A stretch of 37,069 bases of DNA from Monosiga brevicollis MX1 (lineage: Eukaryota). The notes under the pieces were generated by a model. That model had not been told where the DNA came from. It saw nothing but the letters and a program-made list of their open reading frames with translations, and ran no database searches. The translations under genes were made by a program, and so were the position numbers. Shown here piece by piece: positions 10,361-36,302 of the stretch. The number at the start of each line of letters is the position of its first letter. Position 1 is the first letter of the stretch. The stretch spans positions 1 to 37,069 of the forward strand of contig NW_001865083.1 in NCBI RefSeq assembly GCF_000002865.3, given 5' to 3'.

Positions 10361-10529
10361 CTCAAGCGTGATGTGATGCCGTGAAAGGGGCGGGGAAGGG
10401 CGGGAATATATCAGCACGCCGTCCAATACCAGGCGCTACTACCCCGTCCGCCGCGCAGCCTGGTCTCGAGTCTGCCATTCACAGCGTCCGACGCTCAAAT
10501 ATTAAAAAATTAAAAATTAAAAATTTGAA

Positions 10530-10708: not shown

Positions 10709-11418
10709 AACTTTCAATGGTCTGTGTCCCTCTCGGTTTTCATTACTACATGTGGTAATTACGTCGTTTCTTGGTGCCTTTGTCAAACATGATTCTCGTC
10801 TTTCTCTGTTTGACTTCTTTTCTCACTACATGTAGTACTTACAGTTAACGTATCTCGTTGCCTCACACACACACTCACACACATCCAAGTTAAAAATAGC
10901 AAATCATGCCAATTTAAGCACACACGCCCAGTTGCGCCACATCTTGATGTTCATCACAGCTCTAAGATTTATGCTTTCAACCTCTAATTCTCTGAACCTT
11001 GATACACTCTCCTTCCTCTCTCTGCTTTCGCTTTTCTTTCCCCTTATACCAAAACCCCCTCTCAGACTCCCTCTCTATGATCATCCCCATTTGCTCCTAC
11101 CCTCTCAAAGTCACACGAGCAGCGCTCTTTTCTCTCACGCTGCCTCGCCGTGTGCGCGGCGGCCAGCTGACTCACATTTATCTCCGGCTTTTTCCTTCTG
11201 GATCTCGTCCTTTGCAAGCACCTTTCTCTTCTGCTTGGTCTGCGGTTGTTGTCAGGTCAGCTCCCTTGTTCCCTTGTTCCATGCATACCTTCCCTCTTAC
11301 CCCTTGCCTGCCCTTCTCACGTCCCAACCTGACCGTCCAATTCCAGCTAGCGCCTGGCTGCTCCCTGAAAACCTTCAACGCCTCCTCGCCTCAGCGCGCT
11401 CCAACACCAACAGACGAC

Positions 11419-13721
11419 ATGTGGGAACCGGTTTCAGATGGGCATTGGGTGCAAGAGCCAGAGTCCGACCCAGAATCCGAAACCAGCGATGCAGGGGAGG
11501 ACAGAGAAAAAGACCCAGCAAACACTCGCCCAACCGACCAGCACCCCCAGTCCACCGCGCCCGCCCTTAGCGCCCAACTGTATGCCACGTCGACTGCCGA
11601 CACGTTGATATGCGCGCTGGCTGCCAGCGCGGCCTCGGCTCGCGACACGCCTTTACACGTGTGCTTGGTGCTGGACCGCTCCGCCTCAATGTCCGTGCCC
11701 GTCACTGCACGAGATCGCGAGCATGCCATTGTCGAGTACGACATTACCGTCATGGACATGGTCAAGTATGCCGCCCGCGTGGCCCTCCACTGCCTTGCTC
11801 CGGGCGACCGCATCTCCGTCGTCTCCTTTGCTGATCAAGCTCGCATCGACGTACCCCCTACCACCCTCCCGAGCACCCCCACTACCACCACCACCACCAC
11901 CGGCCCCGCCGCCCAAGGCAACTCCGAACTGGCGGCGGTTGTCGCTGGGATCGACCAGATTGCCGCCGAGGGCCGCACCAACCTGTGGGCTGGCCTGCGC
12001 ACCGCCCTCACCCTCCTCCGCGAGCACCATGTGCCTGGAACCCACAACCTCTGCATTGCCCTCACGGATGGCGTGCCCAATTGCCACCCGGCCCTGGGCT
12101 ATGTCGAAGCCCAACGCGCCTTTCAAAACGACCCCGACTTTCGCTACGTTCTCAACACCATTCCATTTGGCTACGAAGACATGGACGCCAAGCTCCTTCA
12201 CCAGCTAGCCCTGCAAGGCGGTGGCATCATGGTCAACGTACCCGACTGCGGCATGGTCGGCACCGTGCTCACCAACATGCTGGCCAATGCCAAGACCACC
12301 ACCCATTGCGACCTGGCCCTGCATGACCCCCACCGCCTCCTCAACCGCCGACTCCCTTGCCGGGCCGATGTCGCATATGACCGCAAGCTTGGGCGCCTCG
12401 CTCTCGGTACCCTCCATGCCCAGCAGCCCCGCCACCTGGCCCTCGCCCTGGATCCTAGCCAGGCTGCCGCCCTTGCGCCTCTGACGACGAGGACGAGAGC
12501 GAGGACCTTGAGGATTTTGAGGACGTCGACCATCACACCGTTCTCAAGCTAGATCTGTCGCACCTTTTGACCCTGCGCGCCTTCAACGTACGCACGGGCC
12601 AGGTGGAAGAGGTGCCCGTGCCCCTTGCTGACCTTGAACTGCCCGAGTCCGAGGAAGCGCGGACGCTGCTGCGCGATGCTGTGTGTGCCGAGGTGCGCCA
12701 GCTCAACGTGCTGATGGCTGCGCGCCGCAATCACACGGCCAGTCAACAGCTTGCTGCTTTTCTGGAAGACCACGACGTACTGGACCTGGACCCCGAGCTG
12801 TTTATCGACCTGAACGAGCAGGTGCGCCAGGCCCTGGCCCCGAATGCTTACCGCCGCTGGGGTCATACCTACCTTCCCTCCCTTGTGATGGCCTACACCG
12901 CCCACCTTCGGCACAACTTTAAGGACCCTGGCGTGCAACATTTTGGCGGCTCCCGTTTTCGTCAGCTGGCTGCCCAGATGTCCGACATTTTCGACAGCCT
13001 CCCGGTGCCCCAACCTTCACTGCACACTGGACGCCGCCTCCCTTCCCTGGCCGTGCTCAACGATTGCCTGGGCGGCTGCTACACCGGCGACAGCCTTGTT
13101 ACCCTGGCCGACGGTACCGTCTGCCGTTGCGATGCCGTTCGGCCCGGCTTTTGTTTGGCCGGCGGGGCTCGCGTGGCGTACGTCATGGCCACGGCGTGCG
13201 TTTCCGGGCGCGAAGACCTCTGCCTTGTGGCCCCAGGGCTGAGCTTGACTCCCTGGCACCCCATTTGCCGCGAGAACGAGTGGTTTTTCCCCGCCGATCG
13301 CTATCCCATCCTGCGCAGTCAACGCTGCGCTTTCAAGTATAGCTTTATTCTCGATGCTCCACCGTCGCGCGGGGCCGTGGTTGTGGTCGGTGGCGTCTCC
13401 ACTGTGGCGCTCGGTGGTGCCGACCAAGCGCGAGCAGCCTTGCCCGCGGCTCGCGACCCCAACGCCGTGCTGGAACACGCCTTTTTTGGCACCACCGCCG
13501 TCCGCCGCCGCGTGGCCGAGCTTGCCCCGCTCTCCAGCAGCCGGGTTGCTGGCCGCTACCTCGTGCTTCAACCGCACGCCTTTATCCGCCCGACTCCCTC
13601 GGCTCCCATCTCGGACATTGACGCCCGCGCCGTTGTGCCCCTATGCATAACCCTCAACCCGGCTTGGCTTTTCAACTTTTCACCGCGGGCTGTCTCCCAG
13701 GCAGCTGTACCTTGCGCATAA
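11419..13721 (+). CDS. vWA-Vwaint-Hint (Vint-type) autoprocessing protein, interrupted by an apparent frameshift at ~12459-12480
   Basis: The first frame from ATG 11419 has vWA MIDAS CLVLDRSASM, ISVVSF, GRTNLWAGL and ALTDGVPN. The second frame (to 13721) has Vwaint YRRWGHTYLPSL...NFKDPGVQHFGG...FDSLPVPQPS, the Hint start GG|CYTGDSLVTLADG (Cys 13077-13079), block B LTPWHPI, YSFILD and the Vint tail HAFFGT. Confidence 0.87.
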
Positions 13722-14549: not shown

Positions 14550-17500
14550 ATGAGTGAGCGGCGCCGAGGCAACGGCAGCCGGGGCAGTGGATCAGAGGGG
14601 ATGGGAGGCAGTGGTGCTGGCATGGAGCGCGCTGGTTCAAATAGTGCCTCTACTCCTACTCGGGGGAGTGGTGGTGCAGATGATGATGAGGTAGATCCCC
14701 TTGTCTGCGCTGCCCCCTTGCGCTGCTCTCCAACCCCTTGCTACCTCTTTCGTCTCCTCCGCCTCCGCCGCCTCCTCCTCCGCCGCGCCTCTGCCTCCTC
14801 CGCGCTGTGCCCCCGCTGTTCTCACACCAAGATTGTGGCTTTTGGCGTACCCCGTGTAGTTTTTGCGAGAAGCCAAGCGGGCGGGCCATCGAACCAGCGC
14901 CACCCACGCCCCAGCTCTGGCCGCCATCCTGGCAGAGGAAGACGACGAGGTCGACCCTTTTCTCGCCGAACTGGCCGACAAGGGCGCTCAGCCCGCGGCC
15001 GCGCCTCACGTAACCAAAGCCGCACCCGAGCCTTCGGCCTCCACCGCCATGCTCGGGGCTGCGCCCCTTCAACAAAAGGCCCAGACAGCGCCCGTGGCAT
15101 CCCCGGCCAGCTCCACCCGCTCGAGCCGCGCCCCAACCAAGGGCGCCGCCTCTCCCGCCACACCCGCAAGCCGCAGCCGAAGCAACACTCAAACTTCCAC
15201 CGCCAGCTCTGCAGCTGGCAAGATCGTCAACAACGACAGCGTCAAGTCCTTGTGCGTGCCCCCGGCCTCCTTTTTTTTTTTTTTGCTCCGTCGTGTGCCC
15301 TCTCTCCTTTTCTTCCCACACACTTTGCCAGCCCCCACCTGACGTTTTTAAGACCCACCCCTTTTTCTCCCCAGGCGCCTCAAGCATGGACGCATTCTCC
15401 GCTCCCAGGCCCTCAGCCAGCTTTCTAGCAATCTGGCTGCCGGTCACATCAAGAGCGAATCTGGACGGCCGACAGCCCTGGTCAGCCACCGTCCCACCAT
15501 CACCTAGGCTTCCTTTGCCCCGCCCCAATCACGACGATTCATTCTCCCGCCCTCCCTCGCTACGGCAGGCCATTGGAGGCAAGAGTACTGTTGCCGTTGG
15601 CACTGCCTTTGGCCTGGTTCTTATCTATGAGCAACAGGTCTGCTCCCCGCGATCTCTGGCCGGCGCCCTGTCAGCCCTTTTCGACCCGCCACCTCACGTT
15701 TGTGGCGGCATACAGACCCTGCAACGCATGCTTGGCAACCTCGAGTCGACGATGCGCTCCGCTGTCACCGCCATCGATCTCGACGTGGAAGAATCTCGCG
15801 TCATCTGCGGTTACGAGAATGGTGTCATTGTTCGCTGGGACCTCGTCTCTGGCAAGCCACTCAACAACATTGAAAAGGTTTACAACAGCGGTACGTCATC
15901 CGTCCCGCTACCTTCTCTAGACCAGCTTGCCGTCCGTCAGCACACCATCTCCACGTGATCTTCGTCTCACCTCTTTGTATCCTTTCCCAACCCCAACCCC
16001 AACCCTGTCTTTCCATCATTGCGAAACAGCGGTCACGGCTCTGGCCTTGACACCAGATCGTCGCCTCGCCGTGTCGCTGAGCGCCGAGGGCTCGGCCTAT
16101 TCCCATGGGTTCAAAAAAGTCATGGGTGTCCGTGTTGTCGACAATCACTGCATTCTGTCTTCCGAGTACGTTCTGGCATTGCCCCACCTGCCAAGTGTAG
16201 CGCCCGCCCCCCTCATCCTACCGCGCATGTCCCCATATCCCGCAACAGTCAAGTCAAATGCTGCACACTTGCGGCTCTCAAGGTCCCTGAAGGCATGAGC
16301 TCGCCCGAAAACGTGATTGTTGCTCTCGGCTCGGCCAGCAAGGTAGGTTGTCGTCAGCCTCATCCGAGTGTAAGCCCGCCCTCCATCATTTTTTTACCCC
16401 TTTTCTTTGCGCAGGTCTTCGTTGTACGCCTCAAACCCTCCATGCATGTCCTGGCCACGCTGACCGCGAGCAACGATGATGGCATGGGCCTCGCCCTCTT
16501 GGACTGGTCTGTTCCGCGTCCCCCTATACGTGATGGGGGAAGCTTGCTTGCCCCAGCGTTCACGACACAGCTCCTCACCCGCCCATCTCCTTGCCCGACT
16601 ATCTGGCCATTCTCGCAGGACCTGGACCGAGGTGCGCTTTGACAACCGGACGCAAGTGCAGCCCATTCTCACCTACTCGTGGGGTCGCAAGGTCAATCTC
16701 CTCAATGTGGGCATGACGTCCACAACCCCGGGGGACAGTGATCTGGCCTGTGTCCCACTGGGTGCTGTTCATAACAACCGTGTCGGCCTGACCATGGTTC
16801 GATGGCTCAACAGCCGCATCATTCTAGCCATGGACCGCAATGTACGCCTTTTTGCTCGCACGCGCATTTTTGTGCACACAATGCCACTCTTCTCCCTTCT
16901 CTGGCACACCAAAAAGAAATATAATAAAGCGCAGGGTTTGATCATTCACTGGCTTGCCTTGCATGTATCCAGGAGCACGTGCTCGTCATTGACGCACGTG
17001 TAGCCCAAGTCGTTGACGTGCTGGACATGGCACCAGCCAAACTGGTCTTCAACCGACACTTTGCCAAGGTGCGTGGCCAGCCTCCACAACGGCACTTTGG
17101 CGATTCATCTGATCCAGCTTATGCTTCTGTATTGCTGCTGTCTCCTAAACTCTAGCGCCACATGCAAGAAGGCATGCGCGACTACACCTCGGCCCTGGCT
17201 GCTGGCTCTGAAGTGCTGATGGCTCTTGGCAGCGACGCCGTGCGCGTCATTCGTGTGGCTACGTACGAACCACACACGCACCCACTGCGCACTGCGCTGG
17301 TTCTTTGGGCTGGCAAAGAGAAGCAACTCACACGTGTCCGCATCTGTATGCCCGCGTTTATCCCGCGTAGCTGGACGGATCGTCTCTTGTACCTGGTCAA
17401 TAGCAAGGCGTTCCGCGCCGCCATTGAACTGGGTCTTGCCTTTTTCAACAACAAGGCCCTTGTGCCATATGGCCTGAGCTCTGACGATGAAGTCCGCAAA

Positions 17501-23221: not shown

Positions 23222-26200
23222 TCAATCCGAATCCTTGTTGCCCGGGGCCACAGCTGCCATTTCGGAGGGAGGCACGTCGTCCACGTTGACGTTGGTAAAC
23301 TGGTGAACAATGGTCTTGTTCGAGTCGGAGCGCATGCCCAGATCCCCAACCTTGGTGCTGCGGCGAGAAAGACGTGGAGAGGCGCCAGACTTGTGCTTCG
23401 AAAAGACAACATGGTAGACCAAGACGGCAAGCAGCACCACGGCTAGCAGCACGAGCACGAGCGTGACAATCTCCACCGCGTTAAAGGAGTCATCGCCCGC
23501 AGTGGCGGATCCTGATGAGGCTTCGGGGTCGGTCATGGCGCTCGTATCCGACACGGCAACGCTTTGGGACGGGGGCTCATCTCGATTCAGCGACTCAAGC
23601 ACGCCACCACTTTCCAAAGAAGGGCTGGCGTCCTCTGCGTACAGCAAGGTGAGCAGCAGGTTGGCGAGTTCTTCGGCTGACAGATCCTCGTTGCTGTCAT
23701 CACGCCGAGTCCACATGCTACGACGGCGACTGCTACCGCCCTGGACTTCGATGCGCAGAGCCACGAGAACCATGCCATCACTGGCCGACTCACGAAGCGA
23801 CTCGACTGAAATCCGGCTCGCCGACACCTGCAGCAGAGAAGCCAATTCGCCTTGCAGTTGTTCGGCAAACTCGGCAAATGCCGTGGACGAGCTGTCTGCC
23901 CAGGCAGCGTTCCATGTCACGGCAAACTTGAGGCCATCCAGTTCGACGGCACTCGGCGTGGCATCGGCAACCTCGCGGTATTGGTAGACCCAAGAGACTG
24001 GCTGTCGCACCTTATTTCCGGCCTTGTCGTAAACGTTGGCAATTTCAATCTCCACCGTCTTGCCACTCAGCAGGGAGGCCGAGAAGGTCTTGGCAATGGA
24101 GAGCTTGATAGCATGGCCCTGGCAGATGACATCCAACACACGCTCGCTGACGCTGATGCTGTCACCAATCGACGCCTTCACCGAAAAGGTGAAAGGTCGC
24201 GTGCATTGCAAAGGTTCGGTAAAGATAACCTCAACGTCGGCTCCCGTGTCAGCCAGCGTGGAGGCCCGCGGATACATGGCAAAGACCCGAGGCAGCGAGC
24301 GGTCCACGGTTCCAAGCAGCGAAACGGACTGGAAATCGTTGATGCCGTCGGGCGCAGCGAGACTTGCCACACTGCAGCGGCTAAACACTCGGAGCTCATA
24401 TTCGCCGTCGGCAATGCCATCGACCTTCCAATCCACCGAAGCGTAACCAAAGCTCGACTCGAGTTCCTTCAGCTCCGCTGGTTGACCGCTCGCGTTCTGC
24501 GCTGTCGTCCAGCTCGAGGCACCAAAGGGGCGGTACTGCAGCAGAACAGACTCGAGTCGGTCATTATCAGCCCAATAGCGTTTCGGGGCCTCCGGGTTGC
24601 TGACTACCACGCGGTACGTAGGCGAAGTCAATGCACTGTTGATCACAAAAGTGCTTGTGCGCAGCAGATCACCAGCCCAAGCCACCGTGGAGCACGGGGC
24701 CAAGAAGTCGACCGTCAACTCGCGCTCATCGTGCTGGAAGGAGCTGGCCGGCCAATTGCCGAGAACCAAAAACAGCTCACGTTCGCAGCGCGACCGGAAT
24801 CCCAGCTTGAAGGACACTGAAGTCCGTTCGTCTGCCTGACGTACATATAACGTTTCCGTGTACTCAGAGTAGGCCGGCATTTGCTCATACAGGCGGCCTT
24901 CCGCGAGCGTATCACCGTTGATAAAGACCTCGGCCCCCTCAACGTCACGAACATAGCTAGACAAAAACGTCGAGGAAAGGCACGCAAATAAGAATGAAGG
25001 CGCAGGGGTAACAGGGGTTGAGGAGAAGTTCAAGGCGTGACGTGTCGCCAGAACTTACAGCTCGTATTGGTTGGCTTCGTTGGCATCGTTGATCAGACGA
25101 AGTTTGAACACGGCAGCTTGCCCAGGATACACGGCTGACAGAGGTTCACTTTCAACAATAATGCGAGGCTAAGAAAAAGTCAACAGTGGCCGTGAGAACA
25201 AACAAAAGACTTGGTGCCACATGAAGCGATGATTCTCAATCACGCACCTGTTCACGGGCATATGTGTTGGTCTCGTGCGGACACTTGGAACTGCCGGCAA
25301 CAGTTGTGAAGACAAACGAGCCGAAGATGGGATCGCGTGCCACCTACGGATTGACCCAACAAAGAGGCAGAGGTCGACACATCCAGCAGCGGCAGCATGG
25401 TGAGGTTAAGTTAGTTCAGCCGATATAGAGGCAAATACCGTTCAGAAAACACACACTTCTTTCCAATCCTGAGAAATCACGAATCAAGTCGTACCTTGAC
25501 CACAAACTTATCGCCGCCATCGCCATCGGCCAGGACAAAACCACGCGTGGTCTCGACGTCGGTGTCGGTAGTCGTAATGTCGGCCGACTCTTCATGTCGG
25601 GTGTAACCAATCTCAAAGTCGAGCGAAGGTCCAACGCCCACTAATTGCACCTTGGCAGCCACGGCGCCCAAAATGTGAAAATCCTTCTGAGCCATGGTAC
25701 CGGAGTCTGAGCTGTTGTCAACACCACTCGTCTCCTCAAACGTATATGCTTGACCTCCACCTGTGAAAGAGATGGCACTGTAGAGTTCAAGTTCGGACTC
25801 GGCTGCCGCGTCTGGCTTCATGTCCAAATCTCGGGCGGCACTCATGAGCGTTTCGGGCATCAAAGCCGTCACAGCTTCCAAGCTTCCTTGTGTCGCGTTA
25901 ATCAGCACGGCATCGGTGTAATTGAGAACCGAGGTCCATCCCGAAATGGCTTCCTTGAGCTTGTCCACCTTCTTTTGAGCCTCCTGCTGCTCGTCCGAAG
26001 TGCCTTCAGCTTGTGCTGTGACAAGGTCTTGCTCGGCCAGGACGAGATTGTTCTTGAGGGTCGGAATCTGTGGTGCATCCAAAAAGTCCAACGTGAAAAT
26101 AAAGCCTTCTTCTTCTGTTTGTTTGTTTTTCCTTGCCCACCCCCTTCACCCCACCTGGTCAAAAAAAGGAGAGCTTACCTCAGCATCCTTGATATCACCA

Positions 26201-29200
26201 TACAATTTGATGGTAAAGGAGTTGGTGTTTTTGGACTTGTCGTCCAGAGACCACGTCACCTTGTCAATAATGCTCACATCGCAGGCGTCCATGTCAAAAA
26301 TCACCTCTTTGGTTTCTGTGTACTTGACCGTCAGGGCTGGAGTCACAAATACTGGGCTGGATGGGACACCCAGATCCTCTGACGTTTGGATGGAGATGGT
26401 GGTGGTAAACGTCACGCTATCATCGCGATTCTTCTTGCCTTCAATGTCTGCACTAACTTTCGAGACCTCAAGCTACACAATCAATCAGGGGGTTAAATGG
26501 CAATCAGATGATGAGTGGGCGAAGAATCTCAACCACCGCTGAATGCTGCCAGCAAACGCCTTTGGACAAAGCAAGTGCAGACTTACGTCAAAGCCAACCT
26601 CGCCTTCGCTCTTGGCCGTTTTACCACATGCCTCGACGCCCAAACCGGCGCAAAGGCTAGATTCAAAGTCCCAGGTATAAGCGCCATGCTCTGCCAAAAG
26701 TCCAATTGCCATGAGAGTACCGAGGACACACACACACACACACACAAAAAAAAAATAAAAAAATAAAAAAATCACCATTATCAAAACAGACGTGAAGGTA
26801 TGGGGGCGATTGGTCAAGAAGCGTTTGGATTCGTACCATGGGCGTAGGCACCACCAAAAGCTTGATATTCACGGTGTCGCACGGTCATCTGCGCTTTGGC
26901 ATTTTCCTGCCGTCGTATCAGTGTCATGAAGCGCATCGATTGTGAGCCCACAGCCGTGCCTTCACTTGTGTTCGAGAGGCCCTGTTCACTCAAGATCAAC
27001 CCAGCCACGTACATAGTAGGCAAAGGACTCGCCACCCGGAGGGTCATAGAGGATCATGAGAGGAAAGTACTCGGGAAAGTCCTATCATACAGACAAGAAA
27101 GCTTTAGTTTACCATCACACAAGCCAGACAGGTTGCCAAGTGGTCGAGTGCGCCCGCACAAGCAGACGTGCATACCATGGTAAAGAGATCTGAGATGATC
27201 TTGTCTCCGGTCACGATGACGGCTTGGCGAACTTCGACGGTGTAGAGGGAGCTGATGGAGGCCGACAGCAGCTTGGCATACTGAACGCCCTCGATGGTGG
27301 CCACCAACTCGGGTTCACCTGCCATGGCGTCGATTGAGGTGTAGGCGCGGGTTACGGTCTCCCCGTCTTTCGCCAGCTCGTGTTCCAGGGGGAGCAGACA
27401 ACCATCCGCGCAGCGACTGAGCAGTGCGGCATCTTCCTTGGACATGGCCTTGTTGGCGACAAGCGTGGCCGCGCGTTCAGTGGTCTCGCCCAGCATGTTC
27501 ACAATCGAAACGTTGCCGTCAATGTGTGGACACGCGGTAATGTCTGCCCAAAAGCTCTCCGTCACGTCCACGGTGATGGTTGTGGTCGTGTCGCGGGGAA
27601 GGATGAACAAGTTGCAGTCACCACCGACGTTGTTTGTCATGGAGAGGGTGACAACAGGTTCAGGATGGTATTCCCATCGCACGGCAGCCGGCCGTGATGA
27701 GAGCAAATCGGCACGTTGCTTTCGCGTTCCTTTGGCGGCAAAGTAATTTGGTACCGTATCCCCGAGCTCCACGGCGTTGTGCGTGAGGCTGATGAGTTCG
27801 ACATCAAAGTTCTGAGCTGGCACCTCCACCAGATGCTCGTATTCGCCAAAGGTAATCTCTTGGGACCAGGACGCGGCGCAAGTGGGGTAGGAGAGCTGCA
27901 GGGTGGTGTTACCCAGCGTACGATTGCACAGCCCACCAGCCACCTGGACCGTCATGGTCGTCGTGGTTGTGTCAATGTAGATGACGGGAGCCTGTCGGCT
28001 TCCATCACTTTCCAGCTTGTAAAAGTCGTAAGCAACGGGGGCACCGGCGAGATCCACCGAGTCGTAAAAGCCCGTGGGTGCACGGCCCTCGTTGAGACGC
28101 TCAAAGGTGTGGTTGTTATAGTCAAAAGAAGGATAGACGGTGAGACCAGCTGCCACGGGGACCACAAAGTAGCCCGCAGTCGAGGTGACTGAGCATCCCA
28201 AGCTGGTATGTTCAATGTGGTTGATGACGCACACACGCACACCCTGAAGGGGGCAGCCGTTGGCATACGAAGCGTGCTCGGTACCCTGGATAAAGAGGTA
28301 GCCCTCAAAGGGGACGGTGGTAGCATCGACAAAGACAACCTCGTTGTCAAACGTGAGGGCGCTCACCAGCAGCGTCTGCTCCGAGCAGGGCTGGCCTGAG
28401 CAGGTGTAGCGGTGGCTGATGTCACCGCTTTGCTTGGCGACCCGCACCACGATGGACTCCACGTCGTTGGACAGCTCGGACGTCTTGACATAGATGGTAA
28501 AGGTGCCATCGGGGCCGGTGGTCAAATTGCCCCCCAAGTGGGGACGGTCCTGGAAGAACCACTCGACGGAGGTATCGGCCACCGGCAATTTGCCGGCCGA
28601 ATCGGTCAACTGCACGCGGCCTTGGATGCGCGCCTCCCATTGAATCTGAAAGCTGGTGCACGTCTGGTGCGACTCGTACGACCCGCTCACTGACTCATCC
28701 TCGGCCCAAACAAAGGCGGTGCGACTGTAGGCAGAGACGCAGTATTGGTGGACGTTGCCAACGTTGAGGTCGTCCGAGTTTAGAATGTCATCGTAGACGG
28801 TCTTGGGGGAGTACACGCGTTCACAGGCTTGACTGGATACCACGTCGTAAGCGGACGTGAAGGAGTAGCCATCGCGGTAGAGTAGAAAGCCATCCTCGCA
28901 GAAGCTGTGGTCGATAAAGTTGAAGTAGATGCGGCCGAGGTATTGGTTGATGGTGAGGTTACCCGGGGTGCCGCTCGTGTCCGACTCCAGACAGCCGCAG
29001 GTGGTGCGCGCGAGTTGATACTCAAAGACGTCGGGGTAGTTGCCGGCTTCGTTTTTGCCTTCGACCTTGATATAGTAGAAGGTACCGGGCAGGAGGTGAC
29101 GCAAGGTGATGAGGGAGGTGTCGGCCTCACCGCCTTCGTCGGCATCAAATTCCTGGGGGTAGTTGGACGCGACGGTGTAGGCAAACTCTGTGGTTTTCCA

Positions 29201-31536
29201 GACGCCAAGGGTGACGCGGAACGCCGTTCGATGAAGGACCGAGTTGTCGACGGCCAATTCGAGGGACTTGGCTTGCATGGTGGGCACCACTTGTAGGCCT
29301 GGGCTCTCGACACATCCGGTGGCAATGTCGTTGGCAGCGTACTTGCCACTGGGGCAGGCCTTGCAGGCGGATTGAGCATACTGGTCTTGGTAGTTGCCGG
29401 GAAAGGGGGAGGCGGAGCATGGTTTGCATTCGGTGGCCACCTCTGAGTTGCTGTAGAAGCCGGGACTGCAAGCTTGGCGGTTGGAGCGGGCACGGCCCGA
29501 GGCGTAATAGCCTTGGCCAACGTTCTTACAGCCAGACTGGCCATAGCTGTCTTGGTACTTGCCGGCATCACAGCTGGTGCAGCCGCCTTGGCCAGCCGAA
29601 CTGTAGGAACCCGGGCCACAGTTGTAGCAATACTGTCCCCATGGGCTATATGTACCGGCCGAGCACTGCTCGCAATCACCATTGACTGAATTGGTGACGC
29701 GATAGCCGACCTTGCAGGTGATGCCCTCATCGCAGCCTGCCGTTGTTGCAGCGCGAGGGCGGAGACAAGACGAGTCACGATGGCACGACGAACAGTGAGT
29801 CAAGACGTGAGGTGCTCGCGGTTGAAGCAAGCCGGGTCGAACGCACCGCAGTTGGAGTCGCATTCGCTATCGCACGACCAGCCGCAGCTTGAATCGCAGT
29901 CATCTAATCGTGAGGAAGGTAAAGGGGGGGGGGGGGAGGGATAATGAGAGATGTGTGAGCTGCAGGCAAAAGGTCGGGCACAAAGCAGTGAAAGACACCA
30001 GGGGAGACAGAAGCAAGAGGGGCAGCACGGACCATCGCAGTCGCAGCCGTTTTGGGAGCCACAGGAGCCGTCGAGCTGGCAATTGGGGCGCCAGGCAGAG
30101 CTTCGGGACTGGCGGAGTTGGCTGGCAAGGCGCATGGAGGCAAAGTGAAGCTTATCCAGGTTGTCGCAGTCGATGATGGAGGGGAGGGCGGCTCGGATTT
30201 GCGTGGCCGAGCGAGTGTAGCGGTTCAGTTTGTGGGTAGCACTCTGGGCGAGCTGCAGGACCGAGGCGGGGTGGTCACCGAGGACGAGGTAGGAGAGTCG
30301 TTGGCAGATGGAGGCCATTGGCTGTTCTTCGAGCGGGGCAGTGGCCAGATCAAACCAGATGAGGGCTTCGGGGCGACTTGTGGCGGCATTTTCGATGAGC
30401 TCGTTGAGTTGCTCGCAGAGGGTGTGGTCGTGTTCCACGTTGCAGGTTCGGTGGAAGAGCATCATCCAGGAATGGGAGAGGCGCTCGATGGAGACGGTCA
30501 GGTGGGTCGAGCCTGTCACCGAGCCGGTGGTGGCATAGTGGATGACGCCCTTTGGGATGTAAAGCAAGTCGCCGGGCAAGAGGGTGATGTGTTGGCAATC
30601 CATTTTGGCCAGTTGCCACTCCTGGTAGTTGGTGCAGCCTTGAATGTTGTGCTTGGCAATTTCCTGCCATTGGGCCTTGTGGGCGTCGCTCAGGTTTTGG
30701 CCGCCCGGGGGCTGGGGCGTGCAAAGGGTCCATTCCTTCTGGCCGTAAACTTGGACGACAAACACGTCGTAGGGATCCGTGTGTGGCTACACGTGATGTG
30801 ACGTGCAAAGGGAAAGATGACAAGTCGGATGAGGGCAAGCAAGGGAGAGAAAGAGAGAGAGAGAGCCAAAAAAAGATTAGGGAAAGGAGGGAAGGGGAAA
30901 AAGGGAAAAAAAAAAAAAAAAACGTACGGCCAAAGCTTGGGCGTTGGGGGGCGAGATGTAGGCATGAACGTTGGTCATGGTGGTAAAGAGGGCTTGGAGC
31001 TGGCGCTGGAGGATGGAATAGGGGCGGTCGGTGGCTTCTGTTTTGACGACAAAGGAGTTGCCGTCGGCCAGGAGGTTTTGGATCGTGTCGCTGGTGATGG
31101 CTTCGCCCGAGTCGGAGGCAATCTGGTCGAGGGCTTGAGGGTCAGCACCGCCTTGGGCTCGAACGGTGGTACCGGCCGACCAGAGATCAAACCATTCGGC
31201 GTAGTCGTCGAGCGAGGCGATCGAGTCGGTCAGGGCCTCGAGTTGAGCGAGGCGAGTCAAAAAGGTCTCGGGATCCCCGCGCTGGGCGAGGTGATACACG
31301 CTCTGCTCAAAGTGATTGAAAAAGAAGGTCTTGACGTTGGCTCGACCATCAAACAGCAAGTCCAAGACGCCCAGGGGCGGCGGCAGGGACGTTGCATTCA
31401 CCATACTCGAACCCTTGGCATCCTCGCCCGTGGTCTCTGCCACGACCACCGCCGCCAACTGCTGCAGCAGCAACAACAGCACCAGACCCAGACCCAGGCC
31501 CAGGCCGAGACGGGCCCCAACCCGCACACGGGCCAT
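23222..31536 (-). CDS. ~2340-aa type I membrane protein: signal peptide, JmjC/cupin 2OG-Fe dioxygenase, Cys/Asp-rich segment, TNFR/GCC2-GCC3-like Cys repeats, FN3-like, large beta-rich/Ig-like region, SEA-like domain, TM helix (12 exons)
   Basis: Exons 30928-31536, 30033-30786, 29847-29903, 27176-29736, 27013-27081, 26837-26906, 26587-26690, 26179-26472, 25495-26067, 25248-25343, 25059-25168 and 23222-24956 are all GT-AG with matching phases and sum to 7032 nt. JmjC: HAYISPPNAQALA|PHTDPYDVFVVQVYGQKEW...LLPGDLLYIPKGVIHYA. Repeats C..C..G.Y. TM AVEIVTLVLVLLAVVLLAVLVYHVVF followed by a basic SKHK. Confidence 0.82.
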
Positions 31537-31577
31537 ATCCGCGTATGCGTGCGCACTCGAGCGTCAAAAAGAAAAAT

Positions 31578-32130
31578 GAGGAGAGAGGAGAGAGAGGAGA
31601 GAGAGGAGAGAGAGGAGAGAGAGAGGGTTGAAGCGCGATCGCACGCTCGCACGCACGCGTGTCGCGTTGAGAGATCTACATAGCCAGCGAAGCACAGAGA
31701 GAGTGTGTGAGTGAGAGAGAAGTGAGAAAGAGAGAGAAGTGAGAGCGTGAGGAGGAAGAGAGAGCGCTTAGAGAGAGAGAGCGCTTAGAGAGAGAGCGCC
31801 GAGAGAGAGAGCGCCGAGAGAGAGAGAGAGAGTGTGTGTGTGTGTGGAGGCAGAGGAGAGAGGAGAGCGGAAAGAGAGTGTGTATGTCAAGGGAGAGAGC
31901 TGAGGGAGAGAGGGGGAGAGAGAGTTGAAGAGGAAGGAGAGAGGAGAGAGATGGAGAGGAGAGGGTTAGAGCTGAGGGAGAGCGCCGAGAGAGAGAGAGA
32001 CGGAGAGAGAGAGACAGCACGCCAAGAAAGAGGGAGAGAGACGACAGGGTGCGAGACAGAGAGAGAGACAGGGAGAGAGACGGAGAGAGCGTCGAGAAAG
32101 AAACAGAGAGAGCGCGCGGGCGAGAGACAA
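31578..32130. repeat. GA-rich microsatellite tract upstream of the JmjC membrane-protein gene
   Basis: Direct reading. It is CT-rich on the gene's sense strand, as seen upstream of VPS8 and the vWA-Hint gene. Confidence 0.9.
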
Positions 32131-35010: not shown

Positions 35011-36078
35011 TTAAGCCGTAGGAGAAGATGCGGCGCGCCATTCGGCGGTGAGGAGGGCAACGAGGTCGTGGGCGGGGAGTGCACGGGCGTGATGGCTGGC
35101 GGTGCCGGCCCAATGGGCACCGTAGCCGAGTTCACGGTGGGCTTGGGCGATGGTGTCGAGGGCTTTGCCGAGGTCATAGGCGCAGGGGTAAGCGGGTATG
35201 TCAGAGGGGGTTATGGCTTGGTTAGCTTCCCATGCGGTGAAGCGGTTGTACAGGGCACGGGCAGGGCGGCCCGAGATGGCGCGGGTCATGACGGTGTGGG
35301 CGTCGGGTCCGAGGCGAGCCTTGTGGGCAGGACTGGCGTCGCTTTCGGGACAGGGGACAAAGGCAGTCCCCAGCTGAGCGGCGCCGGCACCCCAGGCGCG
35401 AGCGCGGTGGAGATCGGCGCCGGTCATGAGTCCACCCGCGGCAATGAGCGGCGTGCCTGGATGGGCTTGGGCCAGTTGGAGGGTAAGGTCTTTGGTTGAG
35501 AGTTGATCATCTGGCGCATCGGGATCAAAGACGCCGCGGTGGCCACCGGCCTCCCAGCCTTGGGCGACGATGGCGTCGAGCCCAAGATCGACAATTGCGT
35601 GCGCCTCTTTCAAGCAAGTTGCGGTGGCGACAAGCAAACAACCCGCACGACGCAGGGCCTGTGCTTGGTCGGGCCGCGGGAGGCCAAAGTGAAAGCTCAC
35701 GACGCGGGGTCGGGTGTGCAACAAAACCTCGAGGCAAGCATCCTCGTCATGAGTAAAGGAGGGGTAGATTTCTCGAAGCCGAGCAGGTGGTTGAGCTCCA
35801 AATTCAGCAAAGAGGGGTTTGGTCCGCTGGAGCCAGTGGCCTTCACGGTCTGTGTTTCTCCGGGCCGGGGTGTGGCAAAACACGTTGACGTTGAAGGGTT
35901 TGTCTGTGAGGGATTGCGTCAACTCGATGGCGTGGCGTGCTTTTGCTGGCGTGGCGGCCCCAAGGCCCAAAGCCCCGAGCGCCCCAGCATTCGACACGGC
36001 GGCCGCCATCACCGGCGTCGACACGCCAGCCATTGGCGCCTGCCACAGCGGCACGGCCAAGTTTAATGCCCTGAGCAT
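35011..36078 (-). CDS. Nitronate monooxygenase (2-nitropropane dioxygenase family, FMN TIM barrel), intronless
   Basis: Motifs PLWQAPMAG, AAAVSNAGALGALG, PFNVNVF, VVSFHFGLP, QGWEAGGHRG (catalytic His), PLIAAGG, AQLGTAF and TRAISGRPAR. ATG at 36078 gives 355 aa. Confidence 0.92.
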   Translation of the reverse strand: MLRALNLAVPLWQAPMAGVSTPVMAAAVSNAGALGALGLGAATPAKARHAIELTQSLTDKPFNVNVFCHTPARRNTDREGHWLQRTKPLFAEFGAQPPARLREIYPSFTHDEDACLEVLLHTRPRVVSFHFGLPRPDQAQALRRAGCLLVATATCLKEAHAIVDLGLDAIVAQGWEAGGHRGVFDPDAPDDQLSTKDLTLQLAQAHPGTPLIAAGGLMTGADLHRARAWGAGAAQLGTAFVPCPESDASPAHKARLGPDAHTVMTRAISGRPARALYNRFTAWEANQAITPSDIPAYPCAYDLGKALDTIAQAHRELGYGAHWAGTASHHARALPAHDLVALLTAEWRAASSPTA

Positions 36079-36302
36079 GTTGAACTGAAGCTCGTTGACC
36101 AAGCGTCTTTTTTTTTTTCGAGAGCGAGTCGTCAACCGTCCGTCCGGGCGGGCGGTCCGAGCCGCCCGTGCCACCTAAACGCGCCTGTTGATCTCCTCAA
36201 ACGCGCTTCTCCAAGACACCAACACCAACACCAACTACAACAGAAAGCAGAATAGCAGCACCACCACCACCACCACTACCACCACTCGACCAACAGAGTC
36301 AA

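What the first reader, a model, noticed from the sequence alone, without database searches (positions are those of the whole stretch)
30033..31536. JmjC (NO66/MINA53/ycfD-like) dioxygenase placed extracellularly at the tip of a giant surface protein
Seen: a hydrophobic signal peptide (LGLGLVLLLLLQQLAAVVVA), then a JmjC with intact Fe ligands H-T-D (30775-30783) and His (30538-30540) and the 2OG Lys in GQKEW. It is spliced in frame to ~1900 further residues ending in a TM helix. Established: this JmjC class is normally cytosolic or nuclear (ribosomal protein hydroxylases). Inference: a secretory-pathway or cell-surface protein hydroxylase fused to a receptor/adhesin, an architecture I do not recognise from characterised proteins.
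Basis: partly seen in the sequence, partly recalled or inferred. Interest (0 to 1): 0.85.

Follow-up and report, generated by a model that had tools for sequence, protein, structure and literature searches.

The report
Surface protein tipped with JmjC oxygenase
A Monosiga brevicollis gene makes one spliced messenger RNA for a 2343-residue membrane protein that starts with a secretion signal followed by an intact JmjC oxygenase domain, a type known from inside cells, so this domain is predicted to face the secretory pathway or the cell's outside and would likely hydroxylate surface proteins there.

Summary
Observation confirmed; interpretation supported and widened. The window is Monosiga brevicollis and the gene is MONBRDRAFT_12796. 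The result is one 12-exon, 2343-aa reading frame.

The order of parts is:
- a signal-peptide-like start;
- a NO66/MINA53-type JmjC module with H205, D207, H286 and K220 intact (Pfam JmjC_2; predicted fold Z 23.4 to NO66);
- a (CDxx)n repeat;
- Ephrin_rec_like repeats;
- about 1600 aa of body;
- a transmembrane helix and a basic tail.

The gene is not unique. It belongs to a family of 693 representatives in which 46 of 65 N-complete members start signal-peptide-like. In that family the JmjC precedes Sushi, HYR, cadherin and fn3 modules, and in three proteins it precedes a membrane helix followed by a tyrosine kinase or SH2 domains. That places the JmjC on the non-cytoplasmic side.

Catalysis, localisation and substrate are untested. 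My best reading is a protein hydroxylase acting in the secretory pathway or at the surface. I found no paper describing this architecture; JMJD8, in the ER lumen, is the only precedent I found. I rate it a new variant of a known kind, interest 0.74.

The parts
23222..31536 (-). Whole coding region of MONBRDRAFT_12796: 12 exons, 2343 aa, ATG at 31536, stop at 23224-23222
   Evidence: Exon joins from contigs of X3, X4 and X6; all 11 introns GT..AG; open frame; 100% match to P0002, the NCBI model, over exon 4
31438..31536 (-). Signal-peptide-like start, aa 1-33: basic MARVRVGAR, then a 24-residue uncharged hydrophobic run, then V-V-A before ETTGE
   Evidence: Sequence; modelled as a low-confidence helix at 14-33 outside the fold; the heuristic is positive in 46 of 65 N-complete family members. 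Cleavage is not shown.
30928..31437 (-). Rest of exon 1: a low-confidence linker (aa 34-47), then the N-terminal alpha/beta part of the JmjC module up to aa 203, including sequon N47
   Evidence: AF2 model pLDDT above 80 from about aa 50; aligns to NO66 from residue 193
30787..30927 (-). Intron 1 (141 nt, GTACGT..AG), splitting the JmjC domain
   Evidence: X4 record 7 joins 30933(-5 masked)|30786; GT..AG
30033..30786 (-). Exon 2: JmjC core (aa 204-309), helical domain (aa 310-432) and the start of the Cys-rich part
   Evidence: Pfam JmjC_2 E 1.2e-15; PDB sequence matches to MINA53 at 1.1e-7 and NO66 at 3.2e-5; fold Z 23.4
30775..30783 (-). H205-T206-D207, the first two Fe(II) ligands
   Evidence: Aligned to PHYD of MINA53 and NO66; H and D present in 43 of 44 family sequences, the other row gapped
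30736..30738 (-). K220 in GQKEW, the predicted 2-oxoglutarate-binding Lys
   Evidence: Aligned to the K of GEKHW (MINA53) and GRKLW (NO66); 44 of 44. Its role in 2OG binding is recalled from the ROX literature.
30538..30540 (-). H286, the third Fe(II) ligand
   Evidence: Aligned to the H of PRGTIH (MINA53) and PRGFIH (NO66); 44 of 44
30595..30723 (-). Family-specific cysteines C225 (30723-30721), C254 (30636-30634) and C267 (30597-30595), within an insert absent from NO66
   Evidence: Cys in 43, 41 and 42 of 44 family sequences; NO66 and MINA53 have no Cys at these aligned places. Disulfides are inferred, not shown.
30103..30117 (-). Basic motif RQSRS (aa 427-431) at the end of the last helix; a possible convertase site
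   Evidence: Same aligned place holds RARR, RSRR, RPRR, RQRR or KRQKR in relatives; strict Rx[KR]R in 22 of 53 members against 56 of 564 background windows. This protein has only RxxR.
29847..29903 (-). Micro-exon 3 (57 nt), the core of the (C-D-x-x)n repeat at aa 451-475; missing from the NCBI model
   Evidence: Joined on both sides in X3 record 1 and X6 record 7; 13 loose letters of X4 record 6 equal its end
27176..29736 (-). Exon 4: Ephrin_rec_like (GCC2_GCC3) Cys-rich repeats to about aa 615, then the body of unknown fold
   Evidence: Pfam Ephrin_rec_like E 1.1e-7; body shared with P0003, P0004, P0067, P0069 and S. rosetta PTSG_07192
25059..27081 (-). Exons 5-11: 27081-27013, 26906-26837, 26690-26587, 26472-26179, 26067-25495, 25343-25248, 25168-25059. 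Exons 6 and 7 are missing from the NCBI model.
   Evidence: X4 record 5 joints; frame; comparison with P0002
23222..24956 (-). Exon 12: Big_5 Ig-like domain, transmembrane helix aa 2262-2284 (23470-23402), 59-aa basic cytoplasmic tail (23401-23225), stop
   Evidence: Pfam Big_5 at 24.0 bits in P0002; hydrophobic helix and tail SKHKSGASPRLSRRSTK

Best explanation
This is one Monosiga brevicollis gene whose spliced mRNA encodes a 2343-aa single-pass membrane protein with a signal-peptide-like start directly followed by a NO66/MINA53-type JmjC module that keeps all Fe(II) and 2-oxoglutarate residues; the module is predicted to face the lumen of the secretory pathway and then the cell's outside, where it likely works as a protein hydroxylase.

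Shown:
- the exon structure and the single reading frame;
- the domain order: signal-like start, JmjC plus helical domain, (CDxx)n repeat, Ephrin_rec_like repeats, large body, membrane helix, basic tail;
- the conservation of the catalytic residues;
- the recurrence of the same module at the N-terminus of other ectodomain architectures.

Inferred:
- The signal peptide directs the chain into the ER.
- The module binds Fe(II), 2OG and O2 there, where these co-substrates are available to the known luminal hydroxylases.
- It hydroxylates side chains of Cys-rich modules, either of its own stalk or of neighbouring surface proteins, during transit.
- It is then displayed on the surface, or possibly released at the basic motif.
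For: Gene and transcript:
- Contigs of X3 (7629 nt), X6 and X4 lack all 11 introns, while X1 and X2 keep them.
- The frame is open for 2343 aa.

JmjC identity and integrity:
- Pfam JmjC_2 E 1.7e-19.
- H205, D207, H286 and K220 align to the MINA53 and NO66 residues. They are kept in 43, 43, 44 and 44 of 44 family sequences, together with H298 and T300. I chose these 44 of the 152 sequences on hand.
- The AF2 model has pLDDT 84.8 and pTM 0.82.
- Foldseek's top match is NO66 at E 1.6e-14.
- VIA-align gives Z 23.4, rmsd 4.5, 289 aligned residues, model 46-436 on NO66 193-584. MINA53 scores Z 23.0; JMJD5 and FIH score about 12-13.
- The JmjC core is the best-conserved part of the protein: 66, 66, 51 and 45% identity to P0003, P0004, P0067 and P0069. 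The body parts score 35-57%.

Topology:
- The start has a basic n-region, a 24-residue hydrophobic run and V-x-A.
- The transmembrane helix at 2262-2284 is followed by a basic tail.
- 57 Cys and 12 of the 13 N-x-S/T sequons lie in the ectodomain; the tail holds no Cys and one sequon.
- Three Cys in the JmjC core are near-invariant in the family and absent from NO66 and MINA53.
- 46 of 65 N-complete relatives start signal-peptide-like, against 3.6% of 1353 internal Met windows.
- All 26 long relatives that I scanned (every listed hit of 907 aa or more) hold JmjC_2. In 18 it lies within the first about 350 residues; in 8 it lies further in (P0097, P0108, P0111, P0117, P0132, P0154, P0156, P0160). 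Some combine it with Sushi, HYR, Ephrin_rec_like, Ig-like, fn3 or cadherin.
- P0150 (MONBRDRAFT_38147) has a helix near 1400 and a Tyr kinase at 1461-1721. P0161 has a helix near 912 and a kinase at 1016-1290. P0119 has a helix near 1675 and SH2 domains near 2200.

Link to Cys-rich modules: 46 of 53 members with enough sequence have 6 or more Cys in a 60-aa window right after the module.
Against: - No activity, localisation or substrate datum exists. Everything beyond the architecture is inference.
- None of 47 signal-bearing members ends in a KDEL-like motif, so the family is not ER-resident. An enzyme needed only during transit would not obviously need to be carried to the surface.
- Fe(II) and 2OG are scarce in oxic sea water (general knowledge), which argues against turnover outside the cell.
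- The h-region of this protein is long, at 24 residues. It could be an uncleaved anchor; the orientation of the JmjC would stay the same.
- The WH domain of the ribosomal oxygenases is missing, so substrate recognition must differ.
- 19 of 65 N-complete relatives failed my signal test. Some are borderline or have the hydrophobic run beyond residue 40.
- 8 of the 26 long relatives carry the JmjC hundreds of residues from the N-terminus, one behind a methyltransferase domain.
- The runs are labelled 'RNA?' as a guess. Their RNA nature rests on the intron-free contigs themselves.
Confidence: 0.5

Rival explanations
1. Sensor ectodomain. The JmjC module would be a ligand-sensing head (O2, Fe(II) or another metal, or 2-oxoglutarate-like dicarboxylates from prey bacteria). 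Its occupancy or slow turnover would change the conformation or oligomeric state of the receptor it sits on. In the kinase- and SH2-bearing paralogues this would signal into the cell; in this gene it would modulate adhesion.
For: The same module heads a receptor tyrosine kinase (P0150, MONBRDRAFT_38147), a kinase receptor of Sexangularia (P0161) and a receptor with SH2 domains in its tail (P0119). No KDEL-like signal was found (0 of 47), and 20 of 47 members have a later membrane helix, so the module is likely displayed at the surface. Strict conservation of the metal- and 2OG-binding residues fits ligand binding as well as catalysis. A review states that choanoflagellate O2 sensing 'remains elusive' and that HIF is absent (PMC10770216, passages read).
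Against: This gene has only a 59-aa tail with no signalling domain. Most family members are short or have no kinase. 2OG oxygenases that sense O2 in known systems do so by modifying a substrate, not as receptor heads (general knowledge). I could not establish whether S. rosetta, the species with shown aerotaxis, has such a gene.
Confidence: 0.2
2. Non-catalytic head. The JmjC fold would be used only as a structural, dimerising or binding domain at the tip of adhesins and receptors, that is, as a pseudo-enzyme.
For: The predicted fold includes the helical domain that mediates dimerisation in NO66 and MINA53 (model 310-432 lies within the aligned range; the domain's role is recalled from the literature). 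Receptor heads that dimerise are common. The co-substrates are scarce outside the cell.
Against: H205 and D207 are kept in 43 of 44 sequences, and K220, H286, H298 and T300 in 44 of 44, at 20-48% overall identity. The JmjC core is the most conserved region of the protein. Pseudo-enzymes usually lose such residues.
Confidence: 0.12
3. Released enzyme. The JmjC plus helical module would be cut from the stalk at the basic motif by a kexin/furin-type convertase in the late secretory pathway. It would then act as a soluble secreted oxygenase, or as a cleaved pro-domain that has modified the stalk, rather than as a permanent tip.
For: A basic motif sits at the same aligned place between the last helix and the Cys-rich repeat in many relatives: RARR, RSRR, RPRR, RQRR, RFRR, KRQKR. 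Strict Rx[KR]R occurs there in 22 of 53 members against 10% of background windows.
Against: This protein has only RQSR, with no basic residue at P2, and 31 of 53 members lack the strict motif. No protein-level data exist. The motif could be a conserved helix cap or a binding site.
Confidence: 0.1
4. Artefact or cytosolic protein. Two neighbouring genes would be wrongly joined, or the hydrophobic start would not be a secretion signal, leaving an ordinary ribosomal oxygenase.
For: The NCBI model differs from mine: it lacks exon 3 and exons 6-7. No dedicated signal-peptide predictor was run.
Against: One 7629-nt contig (X3) and one from X6 cross both disputed junctions in frame, with zero depth in the introns. 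Three independent proteins share the whole architecture: P0003, P0004 (a transcriptome ORF marked complete) and P0067. Ectodomain-type modules and a kinase behind a membrane helix in paralogues fix the side.
Confidence: 0.03

Closest known systems
Ribosomal oxygenases NO66 (RIOX1), MINA53 (RIOX2) and bacterial YcfD/RoxA (Pfam JmjC_2, PF08007)
   Same: Best sequence and fold matches: Pfam E 1.7e-19, PDB sequence matches at 1.1e-7 and 3.2e-5, Z 23.4 and 23.0. Shared features are the HxD...H triad, the Lys 15 residues after the first His, the S-x-H-x-T strand, and a JmjC followed by a helical domain.
   Different: It has a signal-peptide-like start. Three near-invariant Cys and a roughly 16-residue insert lie in the core. 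There is no winged-helix domain; a (CDxx)n and Ephrin_rec_like stalk follows instead. It is fused to a 1900-aa ectodomain with a membrane helix. Ribosomal proteins cannot be its substrate if the topology is as predicted.
JMJD8
   Same: A JmjC protein with a signal peptide, shown to lie in the ER lumen and to form dimers or oligomers (PMC5684140, abstract and outline read). It is the only precedent I found for a JmjC domain inside the secretory pathway.
   Different: JMJD8 is a small JmjC-only protein. That it belongs to the Cupin_8/FIH-like branch is recalled, not tested here. The present family is ROX-type (Z 23 to NO66 against about 12 to FIH and JMJD7). It has no KDEL-like end and is built into large surface proteins and receptors.
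Aspartyl/asparaginyl beta-hydroxylase (ASPH), collagen prolyl 4-hydroxylases and lysyl hydroxylases (PLOD)
   Same: These are luminal 2OG/Fe(II) oxygenases that hydroxylate Cys-rich EGF modules or collagen during transit (recalled knowledge). They are the functional model for what this module would do to neighbouring Cys-rich repeats.
   Different: They come from other branches of the double-stranded beta-helix superfamily, and none of their Pfam families was hit. They are ER-resident enzymes separate from their substrates, not heads of the surface proteins themselves.
Choanoflagellate receptor tyrosine kinases with Cys-rich and HYR ectodomains (for example the RTKC family)
   Same: Paralogue P0150 (MONBRDRAFT_38147) has Ephrin_rec_like, HYR, Ig-like modules, a membrane helix and a Tyr kinase, as described for M. 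brevicollis RTKs (PMC10263333, introduction passages read).
   Different: That paper mentions no JmjC, cupin or oxygenase (0 occurrences). Here a JmjC module heads the ectodomain. The gene in this window has no kinase.
Salpingoeca rosetta PTSG_07192 (P0005)
   Same: It shares the giant body, the membrane helix and the overall length: 2337 aa, 33% identity over 59% of exon 4.
   Different: Its head is dermatopontin (DERM, E 9.4e-48) plus EGF_CA instead of JmjC plus Ephrin_rec_like. The head of this body type is therefore exchangeable.

Membership tests
JmjC_2 / ribosomal-oxygenase (ROX) type 2OG oxygenases | Double-stranded beta-helix JmjC fold recognised by the family profile | tested here: met
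   PF08007 at 70.1 bits against a cut-off of 22; Foldseek NO66 E 1.6e-14; Z 23.4 with 289 aligned residues (on a predicted model)
JmjC_2 / ribosomal-oxygenase (ROX) type 2OG oxygenases | Fe(II) triad HxD...H | tested here: met
   H205, D207 and H286 align to the MINA53 and NO66 residues; kept in 43, 43 and 44 of 44 family sequences
JmjC_2 / ribosomal-oxygenase (ROX) type 2OG oxygenases | 2OG C5-carboxylate-binding Lys on the strand after HxD | tested here: met
   K220 aligns to the K of G-x-K-x-W in MINA53 and NO66; 44 of 44. The residue's role is recalled from the ROX structure literature.
JmjC_2 / ribosomal-oxygenase (ROX) type 2OG oxygenases | Helical dimerisation domain after the JmjC, and homodimer formation | tested here: inconclusive
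   Helices at 310-432 lie inside the range aligned to NO66 193-584.
JmjC_2 / ribosomal-oxygenase (ROX) type 2OG oxygenases | C-terminal winged-helix domain | tested here: not met
   No WHD_ROXA or other WH match. The sequence after aa 436 is a low-confidence linker followed by (CDxx)n and Ephrin_rec_like repeats. The NO66 alignment stops at residue 584.
JmjC_2 / ribosomal-oxygenase (ROX) type 2OG oxygenases | Cytosolic or nucleolar location and a ribosomal-protein His or Arg substrate | not testable with these tools
   The signal-like start, the ectodomain context and the paralogue architectures argue against it, but no localisation or assay was possible.
Type I single-pass surface glycoprotein | N-terminal cleavable signal peptide | tested here: inconclusive
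   A basic n-region, a 24-residue uncharged hydrophobic run and V-V-A before E34; home-made test positive. SignalP was not available; it may be an uncleaved anchor.
Type I single-pass surface glycoprotein | One C-terminal membrane helix with a basic cytoplasmic side; Cys-rich, sequon-bearing ectodomain | tested here: met
   Helix at 2262-2284, then SKHKSGASPRLSRRSTK. The ectodomain holds 57 Cys and 12 sequons; the tail holds 0 Cys and 1 sequon.
JMJD8-like ER-luminal JmjC proteins | Signal peptide plus a JmjC-only protein resident in the ER lumen | tested here: not met
   It is not JmjC-only, having 1900 further residues. No KDEL-like end was seen in 0 of 47 family members. The fold is closer to NO66 (Z 23) than to FIH or JMJD7 (Z about 12). 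No direct sequence comparison with JMJD8 was made.
ASPH / P4H / PLOD luminal hydroxylases | Match to their catalytic-domain families | tested here: not met
   No such Pfam family appeared among the matches of any exon or of P0002. The resemblance is functional only.

The most novel reading that the evidence does not exclude
The ecto-JmjC module is the head of a cell-surface sensing system. It would be an oxygen-, iron- or 2-oxoglutarate-dependent oxygenase domain mounted on adhesins, on receptor tyrosine kinases (MONBRDRAFT_38147) and on SH2-tailed receptors (MONBRDRAFT_12804). This would give choanoflagellates and other marine protists a fast, HIF-independent way to read O2 or metabolites at the membrane, and so a candidate for the still unknown oxygen sensor behind choanoflagellate aerotaxis.
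Probability: 0.1. Interest if true: 0.95.

Novelty: new variant of a known kind. Interest (0 to 1): 0.74.

Why it matters
JmjC 2OG oxygenases are studied as nuclear or cytosolic enzymes acting on chromatin, ribosomes and hypoxia signalling. [quoted passage not shown] At least 11 M. brevicollis genes carry it, including a receptor tyrosine kinase.

If it is active, three things follow:
- It adds a new class of luminal or extracellular protein hydroxylation beside ASPH, P4H and PLOD.
- It points to unknown hydroxylated residues in Cys-rich surface modules.
- It offers a directly testable candidate for oxygen or metabolite sensing at the cell surface, in organisms that lack HIF and whose O2 sensor is unknown (PMC10770216).

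It also corrects the public gene model by adding three missing exons.

Tried and rejected
- Sequencing runs: no RNA holder listed. The runs are labelled 'RNA?' as a guess; I rely on the intron-free contigs themselves. X3 gave nothing in the first lay but did in the second.
- Complex prediction for a homodimer of aa 48-436: the queue was full and the job never ran. There is no result either way.
- The genome search 'own': no genome is held, so I could not count paralogues genome-wide. The 11 genes come from named database hits only.
- The search for homologous proteins with exon 2, 'longer': 1 hit. With P0075, 'near': 2 hits. The word index is too insensitive here; the HMMER scan was what revealed the family.
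- ESM Atlas: only bacterial JmjC_2 clusters at 0.85-0.90, giving no information on range.
- ER-retention idea: 0 of 47 members have a KDEL-like end, so I dropped the 'resident ER enzyme' reading.
- Disulfide geometry of C225, C254, C267 and C364: model coordinates cannot be read, so this was not tested.
- FastTree of 107 JmjC cores (107 of the 153 sequences considered had the motif with enough flank; rooted arbitrarily on P0001; supports not inspected). I used it only to see that this gene groups with P0003 and P0004, then with P0067 and P0069.
- The search of earlier findings: nothing.
- Literature: searches found no paper on a secreted or extracellular JmjC apart from JMJD8. The RIOX phylogeny paper has 0 mentions of Monosiga, choanoflagellates, transmembrane, secretion or extracellular. 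The DANSy preprint mentions JmjC only with Tudor/PHD. Manning et al. 2008 (PMC2453073) and King et al. 2008 (PMC2562698) are not held and may describe the RTK ectodomains. Supplements were not consulted.
- Coordinate slips were corrected.
Full report
**What is there**

The window is from Monosiga brevicollis MX1. Exon 4 of the gene is 100% identical to NCBI protein MONBRDRAFT_12796 (P0002, 2266 aa).

The gene lies on the minus strand. Its ATG is at 31536-31534, and an in-frame stop lies 27 nt upstream.

**Is the fusion real?**

I laid public contigs on the gene.
- Runs X1 and X2 carry the introns and behave like DNA.
- Runs X3, X4 and X6 carry contigs that skip them, with CT..AC ends on the plus strand, that is GT..AG for this gene.
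- X3 record 1 is 7629 nt long and X6 record 7 is shorter. Both join 30033 to 29903 and 29847 to 29736.
- None of the four runs X3-X6 has any depth in the intron bins 29756-29823 and 29926-30027.
- X4 record 7 removes intron 1 and reaches 31551. X4 record 5 removes the eight introns between 27175 and 24957. X4 record 6 ends with 13 loose letters that are the end of exon 3.

All 11 introns are GT..AG. The joined frame runs 2343 codons to a stop at 23224-23222.

The public model lacks the 57-nt exon 3 and exons 6 and 7, 77 residues in all. The runs are labelled RNA only as a guess, and none is on record as RNA. Their RNA nature rests on the intron-free contigs.

**The JmjC module**

Sequence evidence:
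- Pfam gives JmjC_2 (PF08007) at E 1.7e-19 and 70.1 bits over aa 177-304, with Cupin_8 second.
- Exon 2 alone scores 1.2e-15; exon 1 alone scores nothing.
- Among solved structures, the best sequence matches are MINA53 (1.1e-7) and NO66 (3.2e-5). The aligned residues are PHTD to PHYD, GQKEW to GEKHW and GRKLW, and PKGVIH to PRGTIH and PRGFIH.

Structure evidence:
- I built an alignment of 44 family sequences. These were three typed N-terminal parts plus 41 of the 150 listed hits, chosen for being short or N-complete.
- The AlphaFold2 model of aa 1-454 has mean pLDDT 84.8 and pTM 0.82. The low-confidence parts are only the signal region, aa 34-47 and aa 430-454.
- Foldseek ranks NO66 first at E 1.6e-14.
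- VIA-align gives Z 23.4, rmsd 4.5 Å and 289 residues, with model 46-436 on NO66 193-584. MINA53 scores Z 23.0, B. subtilis YxbC 18.5, YcfD about 15, and JMJD5, FIH and JMJD7 about 12-13.

The module is therefore a ROX-type JmjC plus its helical domain. No winged-helix domain follows.

**Family and topology**

A full HMMER scan with exon 2 found 693 representatives at E up to 1e-3 and 119 at up to 1e-10.

In the 44-sequence alignment:
- H205 and D207 are present in 43 sequences; the one other row is gapped.
- K220, H286, H298 and T300 are present in all 44.
- Cys225, Cys254 and Cys267 are present in 43, 41 and 42. They lie in an insert that NO66 and MINA53 lack, and those proteins have no Cys at the aligned places.

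For the signal test I used 152 sequences. Of these, 65 look N-terminally complete: they start with Met and have the HxD motif at 140-300.
- 46 of the 65 have an uncharged hydrophobic 10-mer in the first 40 residues.
- Only 3.6% of 1353 internal Met-started windows pass the same test.
- This is a home-made test, not SignalP.

I scanned all 26 listed hits of 907 aa or more against Pfam. All hold JmjC_2. In 18 it lies within the first about 350 residues. In 8 it lies further in (P0097, P0108, P0111, P0117, P0132, P0154, P0156, P0160), in P0160 behind a methyltransferase domain. Partner modules seen are Sushi, HYR or HYR_4C, Ephrin_rec_like, Ig-like, fn3, cadherin and TNFR_c6.

Three proteins fix the side of the membrane:
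- P0150 (MONBRDRAFT_38147) has a hydrophobic helix near 1400 and a tyrosine kinase at 1461-1721.
- P0161 (Sexangularia sp.) has a helix near 912 and a kinase at 1016-1290.
- P0119 (MONBRDRAFT_12804) has a helix near 1675 and SH2 domains near 2200.

In the gene studied here:
- The helix at aa 2262-2284 is followed by SKHKSGASPRLSRRSTK.
- The ectodomain holds 57 Cys and 12 of the 13 N-x-S/T sequons, including N47 and N234 in the JmjC module.
- The tail holds no Cys.

Named relatives give 11 M. brevicollis genes: 12796, 11172, 33191, 32951, 26810, 12804, 38147, 5112, 28039, 24455 and 28190. Further members come from Salpingoeca infusionum, Hartaetosiga balthica, Choanoeca flexa, Sexangularia and Aureococcus anophagefferens. 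Most other hits are unnamed metagenome proteins.

**What follows the module**

After the last helix comes a basic motif, RQSRS at aa 427-431.
- At the same aligned place, relatives carry RARR, RSRR, RPRR, RQRR, RFRR or KRQKR.
- The strict Rx[KR]R form occurs there in 22 of 53 members, against 56 of 564 background windows.
- This gene has only RxxR.

Then comes a (C-D-x-x)n repeat at aa 451-475, partly encoded by micro-exon 3. It recurs across the family and has no Pfam match.

Next are the Ephrin_rec_like repeats. Of 53 members with enough sequence, 46 have 6 or more Cys in a 60-aa window in this position.

The body, about aa 616-2250, is shared with P0003 (54%), P0004 (46%), P0067, P0069 and S. 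rosetta PTSG_07192. The head of PTSG_07192 is dermatopontin plus EGF_CA instead of JmjC. The head is therefore an exchangeable cassette.

Within the orthogroup the JmjC core is the best-conserved region. It is 66, 66, 51 and 45% identical to P0003, P0004, P0067 and P0069. The body parts score 35-57%, and the helical domain 23-37%.

**How it most likely works**

Shown: the transcript, the frame, the domain order, the intact catalytic set and its conservation, and the ectodomain context in relatives.

Inferred:
- The start acts as a secretion signal, so the JmjC module enters the ER lumen.
- There it binds Fe(II), 2OG and O2, as the luminal hydroxylases ASPH, P4H and PLOD do (recalled knowledge).
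- It hydroxylates residues of Cys-rich modules, of its own stalk or of neighbouring proteins.
- It is then carried to the surface, or possibly cut off at the basic motif.

Points against or left open:
- No family member of 47 has a KDEL-like end, so the module is exported rather than retained.
- Fe(II) and 2OG are scarce outside the cell.
- The rivals are a sensing head (0.2), a non-catalytic head (0.12), a released enzyme (0.1) and an artefact (0.03). I give the hydroxylase reading 0.5.

**Comparison with what is known, and novelty**

By sequence and predicted fold the module belongs to the JmjC_2/ROX kind. It fails two traits of the characterised ribosomal oxygenases: it has no winged-helix domain, and it has a secretory context.

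JMJD8 is described as the first JmjC protein found in the ER lumen (PMC5684140, abstract). It is a small JmjC-only protein and, by recall, of another branch.

Six literature searches found no description of a JmjC domain in an ectodomain or in a secreted protist protein. Targeted look-ups in an RTK structure paper and a RIOX phylogeny paper found none either. The two M. brevicollis papers most likely to show RTK ectodomain maps, Manning 2008 and King 2008, were not held. The claim 'not in print' is limited accordingly.

The proteins themselves are in public databases under automatic names such as 'Ribosomal oxygenase 2'.

I rate it a new variant of a known kind. A review states that choanoflagellate oxygen sensing 'remains elusive' and that HIF is absent (PMC10770216, passages). 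That makes the kinase-linked paralogues worth testing as sensors.

**Not done**

A homodimer prediction was not possible because the tool's queue was full. Dedicated signal-peptide and topology predictors, a genome-wide paralogue count and disulfide geometry were also out of reach.

Noticed in passing
window 29732-30045 (aa 451-475), including micro-exon 29847-29903: A (C-D-x-x)n repeat, GCDCDDDCDSSCGWSCDSECDSNCGCD, lies directly after the JmjC/helical module. The same kind of repeat recurs in most family members, and many short members end in it. It has no Pfam match. It could be a metal-binding element or a disulfide ladder; it remains unexplained.
   Followed up: partly
window 30103-30117 (aa 427-431): A basic motif sits between the last helix and the Cys-rich stalk. 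The strict Rx[KR]R form occurs at this place in 22 of 53 relatives, against 10% of background windows. It is a possible kexin/furin-type cleavage site; this gene has only RQSR.
   Followed up: partly
window 29847-29903, 26837-26906, 26587-26690: The public model MONBRDRAFT_12796 (2266 aa) lacks exon 3 and exons 6-7, 77 residues in all. The intron-free contigs include them.
   Followed up: yes
P0150 (MONBRDRAFT_38147), P0161 (Sexangularia sp.), P0119 (MONBRDRAFT_12804, on a contig of the same length, 248093, as this gene's): These are receptor-type paralogues headed by the same JmjC module. Two have a tyrosine kinase behind a membrane helix, and one has SH2 domains in the tail. P0119 matches the window only through the shared domains, so it is not encoded in this window.
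   Followed up: partly
P0005 (Salpingoeca rosetta PTSG_07192): It has the same giant body and membrane helix, but its head is dermatopontin (DERM) plus EGF_CA instead of JmjC plus Ephrin_rec_like. This points to head swapping on a conserved stalk.
   Followed up: partly
window 10996-13718 (+): Two adjacent open frames carry VWA, then Vwaint and Vint (Hint) domains. They are probably exons of one hedgehog-type Hint-domain protein.
   Followed up: no
window 2979-5048 (-), 9029-10435 (-), 15014-15955 (+), 35014-36174 (-): Neighbouring open frames match a protein kinase, Exostosin GT47, a Vps8 beta-propeller and nitronate monooxygenase. There is no evident link to the JmjC gene.
   Followed up: no
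window 31560-31900 and 30834-30932: Long CT-rich simple repeats (ctctct, and ggcgctctctctct units) lie upstream of the ATG, and a T/CT-rich tract lies in intron 1. The read-laying tool masked these stretches.
   Followed up: no
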